A stretch of 59,601 nucleotides of DNA from IMG/VR virus record IMGVR_UViG_3300028577_000006, one strand, 5' to 3'. The stretch comes from a virus (Duplodnaviria > Heunggongvirae > Uroviricota > Caudoviricetes). The notes beneath the pieces are model-generated. The model ran no database searches. It was not told the origin of the DNA and was given only the letters and a program-made list of their open reading frames with translations. Both the position numbers and the translations under genes were made by a program. Every line of letters begins with the position of its first letter. Within the stretch, counting starts at the first letter, position 1. This document shows positions 52,362 to 53,471 of the stretch, piece after piece.

Positions 52362-52864
52362 GGACGCCGCGCCTCCAGGCCGAGCTTGGCCTGATGCGCG
52401 TAGCCGGCGTCACCGTCGAGCCGCACCGGGCCGCTCGGTAGAATCGCATAGAGCGGCACCCCAAGATGCGCAGCGTCGTGATGTGCCTGTGCGCCGCCTC
52501 GAAGCGGCAAGTACGGCACGCCACGCAGCGGTCCTTCCCACGGCTCCTTGCCGACGCTGTTGCTCGTGACGGTGCGCGAAAACGGAGCGGCCACGAGAAT
52601 CTGCTCCAGGTGCATATAGACGAGGCGACAGACAACTTCGTACTCGCCCCAGTCGCCATCCCTGCGCAGCGTGTTCCAGACGAACTCCAAGCGCGGCACG
52701 GGCAACGCCGGCTCGTCGGCACACTTCGTATGCCGCCACCAGCCATTACGGCTACACTCAAGCTCGTCTTCGAGACGTTCGATCTGCTTTTCCAGTTCGG
52801 CAACACGAGCATCGCGTGCAACGATGATCTTGTTCAGCTGGTCAGCGACACTCGGCTCTTCCAT
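52358..52864 (-). CDS. hypothetical protein
   Basis: ATG 52864 follows the ncRNA cluster. Confidence 0.55.
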   Translation of the reverse strand: MEEPSVADQLNKIIVARDARVAELEKQIERLEDELECSRNGWWRHTKCADEPALPVPRLEFVWNTLRRDGDWGEYEVVCRLVYMHLEQILVAAPFSRTVTSNSVGKEPWEGPLRGVPYLPLRGGAQAHHDAAHLGVPLYAILPSGPVRLDGDAGYAHQAKLGLEARRP

Positions 52865-52886
52865 CTGCGCCCCCACGATAGACAGT

Positions 52887-52942
52887 CTCGGAACGGCACC
52901 GCGGCCCGCGGGGGGACACGGGTATGCAGGTGCCGTTCCGAG
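52887..52942 (-). ncRNA. long hairpin at the 3' end of the ncRNA cluster
   Basis: 14-bp perfect stem CTCGGAACGGCACC/GGTGCCGTTCCGAG extended by CCCGTG/CGCGGG. Confidence 0.6.
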
Positions 52943-52947
52943 GCTGA

Positions 52948-53027
52948 GGAGGCTGCACGGGAGTCGAACCCGCCTTGTGCCCGTCACGGTCTACCGTGCT
53001 CCGGGGCGTGCCCACGCACGCTGCCTC
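52948..53027 (-). ncRNA. tRNA-like RNA lacking a 7-nt anticodon loop
   Basis: Acceptor GAGGCAGC/GCAGCCTC (one A.A mismatch); D-like GCGT-GGGC-ACGC; extended stem CCCG..CACGG-TAGA-CCGTG.CGGG; T arm GCGGG-TTCGACT-CCCGT. Confidence 0.65.
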
Positions 53028-53033
53028 ATAGGC

Positions 53034-53066
53034 GGCCGAAGTGAGAGTAACCTTCTCACCCCGGCC
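53034..53066 (-). ncRNA. 13-bp hairpin
   Basis: GGCCGGGGTGAGA-AGGTTAC-TCTCACTTCGGCC; two G.U pairs form only on the minus strand. Confidence 0.55.
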
Positions 53067-53138
53067 TAGTCGGTTATCAAAAGGCCCGCTCTTGCAAGCA
53101 GATTTTGAATGCATTAGCGCTACCCACGCCCGGCATTG

Positions 53139-53238
53139 GGCACCCTTAGATCTGAGTTCCGGCGCTCTGCTGCTGAGCTACCCCTCGGTAGAGTCGAGGA
53201 GATCGGATTTGCACCGATGCCTCCGGATGGTGAGTGCC
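53139..53238 (-). ncRNA. circularly permuted tRNA-like RNA (YrlA/Y-RNA-like), unit 2
   Basis: TCCGG-AGGC-[T arm ATCGG-TGCAAAT-CCGAT]-[acceptor CTCCTCG-ACTCTAC-CGAGGGG]-TA-[D arm GCTC-AGCAGCA-GAGC]-G-CCGGA, closed by GGCACTC/GGGTGCC. Confidence 0.8.
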
Positions 53239-53311
53239 GTGGTGATGGCGTATCGAGCAATGCGGTTCAGCTTGTCCACTAGAAGCTGAGTCTGAGGTAT
53301 TACCTTTATCC

Positions 53312-53396
53312 AGCGAACGCTTTGCCTCTGCTATTCGGCTACTCCCCGGTAGAATCGGGGAGGTTGGACTTGCACCAACAGATTTGGGCGTACGCC
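53312..53396 (-). ncRNA. circularly permuted tRNA-like RNA (YrlA/Y-RNA-like), unit 1
   Basis: GGCGTACGC...[T arm GTTGG-TGCAAGT-CCAAC]-[acceptor CTCCCCG-ATTCTAC-CGGGGAG]-TA-[D arm GCC-GAATAGCAGA-GGC]...GCGTTCGCT closing stem. Confidence 0.8.
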
Positions 53397-53471
53397 TTCT
53401 TGAGTTTGAGATTGGTGGACCTTGAACCGAGCCGGCACTAGTGCCGACCGGATCGCTTTGGTGAATGGGCG

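What the first reader, a model, noticed from the sequence alone, without database searches (positions are those of the whole stretch)
53139..53396. Two tandem circularly permuted tRNA-like RNAs (YrlA/Y-RNA architecture) in a phage-like genome
Seen: on the minus strand, two units each read T arm -> acceptor 3' strand -> 7-nt loop (ATTCTAC / ACTCTAC) -> acceptor 5' strand -> D arm. Their ends pair where the anticodon stem would be: GGCGTACGC/GCGTTCGCT in unit 1; TCCGG/CCGGA plus GGCACTC/GGGTGCC in unit 2. The two units differ in sequence but keep their pairing (GTTGG/CCAAC vs ATCGG/CCGAT; CTCCCCG/CGGGGAG vs CTCCTCG/CGAGGGG), which is covariation within the locus. Both carry a TGCAA(G/A)T T loop instead of TTCGA. 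Established: this permuted, anticodon-less fold is the architecture of bacterial YrlA Y RNAs, which normally sit beside Ro60/Rsr (TROVE) and RtcB. No Ro60 gene is in this window. Inference: these may be orphan Y-like RNAs that hijack a host Ro60/PNPase complex, or decoys for anticodon-nuclease defences. An alternative fold also exists: unit-1 5' half plus unit-2 3' half (CGGGGAG/CTCCTCG) could form a linear tRNA with a ~110-nt insertion.
Basis: partly seen in the sequence, partly recalled or inferred. Interest (0 to 1): 0.92.

Follow-up and report, generated by a model that had tools for sequence, protein, structure and literature searches.

The report
Double tRNA-mimic RNA beside DUF7873
The two back-to-front tRNA look-alikes are real, but they are this giant phage's copy of a widespread, apparently undescribed structured RNA that always follows one conserved protein gene of unknown function (DUF7873), and they are distinct from the Y RNAs that sit next to the phage's own Ro60 gene 18 kb away.

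Summary
Observation confirmed. On the minus strand, 53396-53312 (U1) and 53238-53139 (U2) each read T arm, 7-bp acceptor hairpin, U8-A9, D arm, closed by a long stem where the anticodon arm would be. When de-permuted, ARAGORN calls them tRNAs; none of 500 shuffles is called.

Interpretation partly supported. The architecture is that of YrlA, but the RNAs are not orphans. The same contig carries a Ro60 gene 18.25 kb away on the same strand, with its own Y RNAs bearing GCCGAAG-type motifs. U1 and U2 lack that motif and score 17 bits or less against Rfam YrlA (gathering score 69).

The units belong with the upstream gene, DUF7873. All six tested phage relatives (51-82% identical protein) have two permuted modules just downstream. 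So do 56 of 80 bacterial loci from several phyla; 74 have at least one. The modules pair in 99.6% of cells, and 13 of 15 pairs show double changes. The odd UGCAA T loop covaries with the D loop: 55:18 is U:G in 111 modules, G:A in 12 and G:G in none.

In 151 sampled genomes of a Streptomyces order, 37 of the 88 with DUF7873 had no detectable TROVE domain.

Best reading: a Ro60-independent, two-headed tRNA-mimic RNA, probably partnered with DUF7873. The mechanism is inferred. This scan has already found the same gene-RNA pair on other DNA several times.

The parts
53472..54215 (-). DUF7873 gene (247 aa), the conserved upstream partner gene of the RNA
   Evidence: Pfam PF25283, 294 bits. 2417 homologues. 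In every relative tested it is followed by the permuted modules.
53399..53418 (-). Conserved leader motif CCACCAAUCUCAAACUCAAG just 5' of U1; a related CAAUCUCAGACUC occurs in Streptomyces
   Evidence: Alignment of phage relatives; S. phaeofaciens locus. Role unknown; possibly a start or a processing site.
53312..53396 (-). U1: first circularly permuted tRNA-like module with its closing stem
   Evidence: R1 core 85.6 bits (by construction). Orthologues score 43-73 bits in L018, L141-L145. Compensatory changes in the T stem and closing stem.
53342..53362 (-). U1 acceptor-like hairpin: 7 bp plus 7-nt loop AUUCUAC. The loop is expanded to 33 nt in L018.
53267..53289 (-). Conserved linker hairpin between the two modules
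   Evidence: Conserved in win/L018/L141/L142
53139..53238 (-). U2: second permuted tRNA-like module with a 5-bp inner stem, an asymmetric internal loop and a 7-bp outer stem
   Evidence: Rfam YrlA 17.1 bits, E 1.4. The orthologue in G001 is that genome's best YrlA match, 32.8 bits. The consensus fold keeps the outer stem.
53146..53157 (-). 12-nt 3' internal-loop segment ACUCAGAUCUAA, almost invariant in phage relatives
   Evidence: Candidate ligand-binding site (inference).
53075..53102 (-). Short hairpin plus U-run (terminator-like). The stem is replaced by a different, still complementary stem in strain variants L004/L007/L008.
53034..53066 (-). Hairpin with a conserved GGUUAC loop
52949..53027 (-). 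Linear tRNA-like element with a tetraloop instead of an anticodon loop. Conserved with compensatory changes in L018, L141 and L142.
   Evidence: Rfam tRNA-Sec 23 bits, below gathering score. ARAGORN only at 80% threshold. Alignment.
52882..52947 (-). Very stable hairpin closing the non-coding array (-44.7 kcal/mol, z -7.3)
   Evidence: Not present in L018/L141/L142.

Best explanation
U1 and U2 are the two tRNA-shaped heads of one conserved structured non-coding RNA, roughly 53410 to 53078 or beyond on the minus strand. This RNA is encoded immediately after a DUF7873 gene in many phages and bacteria. Each head folds like the upper body of a tRNA: acceptor stem stacked on the T arm, and a D/T-loop elbow. 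The tRNA ends are joined by a short loop, and the anticodon arm is replaced by a long stem with an internal loop. Shown: the fold, its conservation, its linkage to DUF7873, and its separation from the phage's Ro60/Y-RNA locus. Inferred: the RNA is made with or just after the DUF7873 message. [quoted passage not shown] It would work as a scaffold or tether together with the DUF7873 protein rather than with Ro60. In this phage clade the unit is extended by a further hairpin module and an anticodon-less linear tRNA-like element.
For: Fold: de-permuted units are called tRNAs and 0 of 500 shuffles are. Covariation of the core in 118 distinct bacterial modules: 99.6% of cells paired, 13 of 15 pairs changed on both sides, 0 of 500 shuffles reach this, and slid controls drop to 48-60%. 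Phage orthologues show double changes in T, acceptor and closing stems. Tertiary elbow: position 55 covaries with 18 (U:G 111, G:A 12, G:G 0; p 1.7e-12, not phylogeny-corrected). G19 and C56 are kept. The same switch occurs between orthologous U1 copies, window versus L141/L142. Linkage: two modules follow DUF7873 on the same strand in 6 of 6 phage relatives. At least one follows in 74 of 80 bacterial loci and exactly two in 56, with a median offset of 143 nt. Independence from Ro60: the array has no GNCGAAN0-1G, whereas YrlA-like RNAs near rsr in the same genome have GCCGAAG. rsr is 18.25 kb away here and 24.5 kb away in G001. A complete Streptomyces genome has DUF7873 plus the RNAs but no TROVE hit. 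37 of 88 DUF7873-positive genomes had no TROVE hit, and where both exist they lie 70-100 kb apart or on other contigs. RNase P/CCA precedent and the 7-bp rule: PMC4201824.
Against: No transcript, end-mapping, binding or processing datum exists for this locus. DUF7873 has no recognisable RNA-binding fold or any known fold, so partnership rests on gene adjacency alone. The phage does encode Ro60, and DUF7873 and TROVE co-occur weakly in one bacterial order (odds ratio 2.0, p 0.05). Streptomyces copies carry a GNCGAANG-like GGACGAACG in the U2 5' strand, so Ro60 binding in some hosts is not excluded. An earlier scan check priced the 'protein binds this RNA' reading at only 22 in 100. The RNA boundaries are guesses. 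The alignment used for pair counts was fitted to the model's structure.
Confidence: 0.6

Rival explanations
1. They are ordinary YrlA-type Y RNAs that serve the phage's own Ro60, merely placed further from rsr than usual.
For: Same architecture as YrlA. Ro60 lies on the same contig and strand. The U2 orthologue is the best RF02553 match in the relative G001. There is weak genome-level co-occurrence of DUF7873 and TROVE. Streptomyces copies have a GNCGAANG-like motif.
Against: The phage copies have no GNCGAAN0-1G, while the rsr-proximal RNAs of the same genome have it. Scores are far below the Rfam gathering score: 17 versus 69 bits. The units lie 18-25 kb from rsr, against the 4 kb used to define the family. 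The family persists in genomes with no TROVE hit. Sub-threshold YrlA hits also appear in 13 of 14 control genomes.
Confidence: 0.2
2. They are cis-acting 3' elements of the DUF7873 mRNA. The tRNA-like folds would recruit RNase P or RNase Z to cut and stabilise the message end (as for mascRNA or tRNA-punctuated transcripts) and have no function of their own.
For: They lie directly downstream of the gene on the same strand, with no sigma-70-like promoter found between. The 7-bp acceptor stems are predicted RNase P substrates.
Against: A single tRNA-like cut site would suffice for that role. Instead two heads, a linker hairpin, closing stems and a nearly invariant 12-nt internal loop are conserved across phyla. 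In L141 a whole gene (SIMPL) lies between DUF7873 and the RNA, yet the RNA is kept.
Confidence: 0.12
3. They are permuted or split tRNA genes that are processed and ligated into decoding tRNAs by the phage's RNA ligases.
For: tRNA-like halves in 3'-then-5' order. RNA ligases and RtcB occur in this phage lineage.
Against: There is no anticodon loop sequence and no bulge-helix-bulge motif at the junction. The closing stems vary in length and sequence between orthologues. The cross-unit chimera is not a tRNA by ARAGORN at default. The same RNA occurs in bacteria with full tRNA sets.
Confidence: 0.04
4. They are decoys for host tRNA-targeting defence nucleases, or self-cleaving twister-sister-like ribozymes.
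For: They mimic tRNA. Both units give 19-bit partial matches to Rfam Twister-sister through the GGUGCAAGYCC hairpin.
Against: Without an anticodon loop they cannot be anticodon-nuclease substrates. The same RNA is chromosomal in many bacteria. The twister-sister matches cover only model positions 13-67, lack the cleavage-site strands, and are below the gathering score of 34. In orthologues the loop reverts to an ordinary UUCAA T loop.
Confidence: 0.03

Closest known systems
YrlA (Y RNA-like A; Rfam RF02553; Chen et al. 2014, PMC4201824; Wang et al. 2018, 10.1101/312249)
   Same: A permuted tRNA-like domain (T arm, closed acceptor stem, D arm) sits on a long stem. The tRNA elbow contacts are kept. 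It occurs in bacteria and phages. Like the M. smegmatis YrlA, which RNase P cuts, it has a 7-bp acceptor stem.
   Different: There are two heads in one unit. It is linked to DUF7873, not to Ro60. The phage copies have no GNCGAAN0-1G. It scores below the Rfam gathering score. It is found in genomes without a detectable TROVE gene. This phage keeps separate Ro60-proximal YrlA-like RNAs.
[quoted passage not shown]
   Same: A tRNA-like RNA predicted to work with a protein partner other than Ro60.
   Different: b7a-tRNA is described there as strongly resembling an authentic, linear tRNA next to a Band-7 protein and RtcB. Here the modules are permuted and doubled, and the neighbour is DUF7873, which gives no Band-7 Pfam match.
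Circularly permuted tRNA genes of red algae and two-piece (permuted) tmRNA genes (own knowledge)
   Same: The gene order has the 3' half before the 5' half of a tRNA-like fold.
   Different: Those are processed into functional tRNA or tmRNA with free acceptor ends. Here there is no anticodon loop and no tag reading frame. ARAGORN finds no permuted tmRNA at default.
Rsr-proximal Y RNAs of this same phage (L015 954-1071 and 1159-1259; three more after rsr)
   Same: Same genome, same strand. Two of them have the same permuted tRNA-like core (R1 35.9 and 26.7 bits).
   Different: They carry a GCCGA(A/U)G 5' motif and score 30-37 bits on RF02553. They lie in the tRNA array next to rsr, not after DUF7873.

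Membership tests
YrlA / bacterial Y RNA (RF02553) | tRNA-like domain in the order T arm, closed acceptor-like stem, D arm, on a stem formed by the RNA ends | tested here: met
YrlA / bacterial Y RNA (RF02553) | Score at or above the Rfam gathering threshold (69 bits) | tested here: not met
   No hit at gathering score. U2 scores 17.1 bits, E 1.4; U1 gives no hit.
YrlA / bacterial Y RNA (RF02553) | GNCGAAN0-1G motif near the 5' end (proposed Ro60 contact, PMC4201824) | tested here: not met
   Regex scan of 53471-52880(-) finds none. The nearest is GGCGUACG in U1. The rsr-proximal RNAs have GCCGAAG.
YrlA / bacterial Y RNA (RF02553) | Encoded within 4 kb of the Ro60 gene on the same strand (criterion of Chen et al. 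2014) | tested here: not met
   Same strand, but 18.25 kb from rsr here and 24.5 kb in G001
YrlA / bacterial Y RNA (RF02553) | Bound by Ro60/Rsr | not testable with these tools
   Needs immunoprecipitation
YrlA / bacterial Y RNA (RF02553) | tRNA elbow tertiary contacts between the T and D loops | tested here: met
   G19 and C56 conserved. 18:55 covaries G:U / A:G with no G:G.
DUF7873-linked two-headed tRNA-mimic RNA (family defined only by this scan) | Lies directly downstream of a DUF7873 gene on the same strand | tested here: met
DUF7873-linked two-headed tRNA-mimic RNA (family defined only by this scan) | Two tandem permuted modules with orthologous U1-type and U2-type D arms, linker and closing stems | tested here: met
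   Joint alignment of 7 phage and 14 bacterial loci and its consensus fold
tRNA (RF00005 / ARAGORN) | Linear cloverleaf with an anticodon loop | tested here: not met
   No native hit. Recognised only after artificial de-permutation with an added loop.
Twister-sister ribozyme (RF02681) | Full model match at or above 34 bits, including the cleavage-site internal loop | tested here: not met
   19.1 and 18.7 bits, model positions 13-67 and 16-63 only

The most novel reading that the evidence does not exclude
DUF7873 and the two-headed tRNA-mimic RNA would form a ribonucleoprotein that works without Ro60. It would be a second, undescribed lineage of tRNA-mimic RNPs, spread over several bacterial phyla and many large phages. 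This phage runs it side by side with a classical Ro60/Y-RNA system, so the two are not redundant. The heads would be nicked by RNase P and CCA-tailed, giving the particle tRNA-like acceptor ends.
Probability: 0.3. Interest if true: 0.8.

Novelty: new variant of a known kind. Interest (0 to 1): 0.66.

Why it matters
Bacterial Y RNAs are the only described class of permuted tRNA mimics, and they are defined by their Ro60 partner. Here the same design is doubled, strongly conserved and tied to a different, very conserved protein: about 400 bits across one order, and present in at least 581 species genomes. It also occurs in genomes where no Ro60 was detected. That points to an unrecognised RNA-protein system in Streptomyces and other soil bacteria that large phages have borrowed. 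This window is a useful test bed because one genome carries both systems. A single infection experiment with two pull-downs could show whether the RNAs sort to Ro60 or to DUF7873. The 18:55 G:U to A:G switch is also a clean natural covariation of the tRNA elbow.

Tried and rejected
Rfam at gathering score on the window and on 14 bacterial loci found only tRNAs. BLASTN of the locus against INPHARED phages found no match. A strict unit pattern in IMG/VR gave 0 hits. A looser pattern gave 120 or more loci, many of them tandem-tRNA junctions that had to be filtered by acceptor pairing. No whole genome is held for the window, so the contig was walked by exact-protein look-ups.

Expression: no RNA holder is listed. 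Two runs only guessed to be RNA gave 151-nt contigs of a variant covering 52976-53154 only. This shows nothing about transcription or ends.

DUF7873 function: no PDB sequence relative, no Foldseek match, and only generic helical-bundle similarities at Z below 8. No NCBIfam or PHROG family matched, and no paper mentions DUF7873. The 508-aa gene upstream of DUF7873 in S. phaeofaciens is not Ro60. The supplementary tables of Chen et al. 2014 are not held, so I could not check whether any of their 355 YrlAs is DUF7873-linked. One relative (P0002) returned no DNA. Complex prediction was not used: it takes no RNA, and I do not claim any protein-protein contact.

Full report
THE OBSERVATION. I read the minus strand of 52800-53520. 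Both units are there exactly as described. U1 (53396-53312) has:
- a closing strand GGCGUACGC and an 8-nt variable region;
- a T arm GUUGG/UGCAAGU/CCAAC;
- a 7-bp acceptor stem CUCCCCG/CGGGGAG closed by AUUCUAC;
- U8-A9, a D arm, then AAA and the closing strand GCGUUCGCU.

U2 (53238-53139) has the same core. It adds a textbook D arm (GCUC/AGCAGCA/GAGC), a 5-bp inner stem UCCGG/CCGGA, and an outer stem GGCACUC/GGGUGCC. The two stems are separated by an asymmetric internal loop.

RNAfold reproduces the U1 fold (z -2.4). For U2 it keeps the acceptor hairpin and outer stem but not the T arm.

As a direct test of tRNA likeness I cut each unit in its acceptor loop and joined the 'anticodon stem' strands with an arbitrary 7-nt loop. 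ARAGORN at default then calls U2, and a U1 trimmed to a 5-bp stem, as cloverleaf tRNAs. It calls none of 500 shuffles. In the native order, ARAGORN and Rfam at gathering scores see nothing here. The sensitive Rfam scan gives YrlA 17.1 bits (E 1.4, gathering score 69) on U2 only. It also gives partial 19-bit twister-sister matches, caused by the GGUGCAAGUCC hairpin.

THE GENOME HAS ITS OWN Ro60. Earlier notes of this scan said that an rsr gene lies beyond the window's end. I checked this independently.
- Exact-protein look-ups recovered metagenome contigs identical to the window over 5950 overlapping bases.
- On them a 584-aa TROVE + vWA_Ro60 protein lies at window-equivalent 71650-73404, on the same strand as the units and 18.25 kb from U1.
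- A covariance model of the unit core (R1) finds further permuted modules in the tRNA array just upstream of rsr: L015 981-1038 at 35.9 bits and 1184-1236 at 26.7 bits.
- Rfam YrlA scores these at 30.4 and 36.8 bits over its full length.
- Those RNAs, and the ones after rsr, start with GCCGA(A/U/C)G, the GNCGAAN0-1G-type motif that Chen et al. proposed as the Ro60 contact.
- The U1/U2 array has no such motif. The nearest is GGCGUACG in U1, whose 5' strand varies freely among orthologues.

So the units are not orphans in a Ro-less genome. They also differ from the RNAs that sit with Ro60.

WHAT THE UNITS GO WITH. The upstream gene (53472-54215, minus strand) is a full-length DUF7873 (294 bits).
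- Ten near-identical strain contigs keep U1/U2 unchanged.
- A 297.7-kb IMG/VR phage (79% identical DUF7873) keeps the whole array, with many compensatory changes. The U1 T stem GUUGG/CCAAC becomes GCAGG/CCUGC. The U2 acceptor pairs 1-72 and 5-68 flip. The closing stems are re-paired. The U1 acceptor loop grows to 33 nt with its own hairpin.
- Five more phage relatives, down to 51% protein identity, each have two modules after DUF7873. In one a SIMPL gene is inserted between the gene and the RNA.
- A Streptomyces chromosome also has a module after its DUF7873.
- A scan of species genomes found at least 581 DUF7873 relatives. Of the 80 loci fetched, 74 have at least one R1 match downstream on the same strand and 56 have exactly two, with a median offset of 143 nt. 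The loci come from Streptomyces, Kitasatospora, Catellatospora, Catenulispora, Dactylosporangium, Abditibacteriota, Armatimonadota, Acidobacteriota, Ktedonobacterales and Deinococcales.
- A joint alignment of 7 phage and 14 bacterial loci shows one homologous unit of about 300 nt: leader motif, U1, linker, U2, 3' tail.

STRUCTURE STATISTICS. On 118 distinct bacterial modules, 99.6% of cells pair and 13 of 15 pairs change on both sides. No shuffle of 500 reaches the observed values, and sliding the partners drops pairing to 48-60%. The alignment was fitted to the model, so these counts lean towards the structure, but the margin is large. In a plain MAFFT alignment the closing stems pair in 70-100% of sequences, with many pair types.

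Among distinct modules with a paired acceptor stem, positions 55:18 are U:G in 111 and G:A in 12. They are never G:G. Seven are U with another base, some through alignment slips. G19 and C56 are kept (p 1.7e-12, not corrected for phylogeny). The switch occurs between orthologous copies: the window's U1 is G:A, while U1 in L141 and L142 is U:G. It recurs in several phyla. In the solved YrlA structure, these are the D-loop guanines that pair with and intercalate into the T loop. This is good evidence that the tRNA elbow forms.

IS Ro60 NEEDED? In five DUF7873 genomes, TROVE was found in four. Where both lay on the same contig it was hundreds of kb or more away; in the others it lay on a differently numbered contig. 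A complete Streptomyces genome had none. In 151 sampled genomes of that order:
- DUF7873 was found in 88 and TROVE in 77;
- both in 51, DUF7873 alone in 37, TROVE alone in 26, neither in 37 (odds ratio 2.0, p 0.05, uncorrected).

Where both lie on one contig they are 70-100 kb apart. Two caveats apply. Most Streptomyces TROVE hits covered only a 60-residue stretch of the model, and absence in draft genomes is not proof. In the related phage G001, rsr is 24.5 kb from the array. The array's U2 copy, which has an ordinary UUCAA T loop, is that genome's best YrlA match at 32.8 bits, but over the tRNA-like core only. The same model gives sub-threshold hits in 13 of 14 control genomes, so such scores mean little on their own.

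MECHANISM. Shown: a conserved, doubly tRNA-shaped RNA gene tied to DUF7873. The rest is inferred.
- The nearly invariant 12-nt segment ACUCAGAUCUAA on the 3' side of U2's internal loop looks like a binding site.
- A hairpin plus U-run at 53102-53075 may end the RNA. Strain variants replace its stem by a different complementary stem.
- DUF7873 models confidently (pLDDT 87) as long helices with beta hairpins, but it resembles nothing solved.

I therefore favour a Ro60-independent scaffold RNA working with DUF7873, and I hold the partnership at about 0.3. The main rivals are true Ro60 Y RNAs (0.2) and cis-acting processing elements of the DUF7873 message (0.12).

RELATION TO EARLIER WORK. Chen et al. 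reported only YrlA candidates within 4 kb of Ro60, so this class would have been filtered out. No paper in the library mentions DUF7873. After I had reached the DUF7873 link myself, a look-up showed that this scan has found the same gene-RNA pair on other DNA at least seven times, with the same reading. One later check kept the observation at 90 in 100 and the protein-binds-RNA claim at 22 in 100.

This window adds four things:
- a genome where the DUF7873 RNA and a Ro60/Y-RNA set coexist and can be compared directly;
- the 18:55 covariation;
- a clade-specific extension of the array by a GGUUAC hairpin and an anticodon-less linear tRNA-like element (52949-53027), both conserved with compensatory changes;
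- evidence against the cross-unit split-tRNA fold.

Noticed in passing
window 52949-53027 (-): A linear tRNA-like element with an 8-9 bp acceptor stem, a canonical T arm and a tetraloop in place of the anticodon loop. Conserved with compensatory acceptor and T-stem changes in L018, L141 and L142. Its T arm nearly copies that of the CUA-anticodon tRNA at 55-129.
   Followed up: partly
window 53075-53102 (-); L004/L007/L008: Strain variants replace the hairpin CUGCU-UGCAAG-AGCGG with CCGGA-UGUCAAG-UCCGG: a whole-stem compensatory swap between near-identical genomes, followed by a U-run (terminator-like).
   Followed up: partly
L094 (IMGVR_UViG_3300033233_000006) 980-2360; L065 1340-1800: Dense arrays of tRNA-like units whose T loops are UGCRA and whose D loops have A18 instead of G18. 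The G55:A18 elbow variant may therefore also occur in linear phage tRNA-like genes.
   Followed up: no
L146 (Streptomyces phaeofaciens) 102-506: The RNase P RNA gene (292 bits) lies about 2 kb upstream of DUF7873 and the tRNA-mimic RNA, with an unannotated 508-aa gene between. I did not check whether this neighbourhood is conserved.
   Followed up: no
L152, L153, L156, L215 etc., 5' closing strand of U2: Streptomyces copies of U2 carry GGACGAAC(G), which fits the Ro60-contact motif GNCGAANG. The phage copies do not.
   Followed up: partly
G001:C1:114131-116566 (+): RtcB in the related jumbo phage matches the Pfam model in two pieces about 1 kb apart within one 921-aa open frame. This suggests an intein or other insertion.
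   Followed up: no
L141 3262-3915: A SIMPL-domain gene is inserted between DUF7873 and the RNA array in one phage lineage (also in the contig of P0002). The RNA is kept downstream.
   Followed up: no
window 55-129 (+): A tRNA with a CUA anticodon (ARAGORN labels it Pyl; 53 bits on RF00005), i.e. an amber-reading tRNA at the edge of the window.
   Followed up: no
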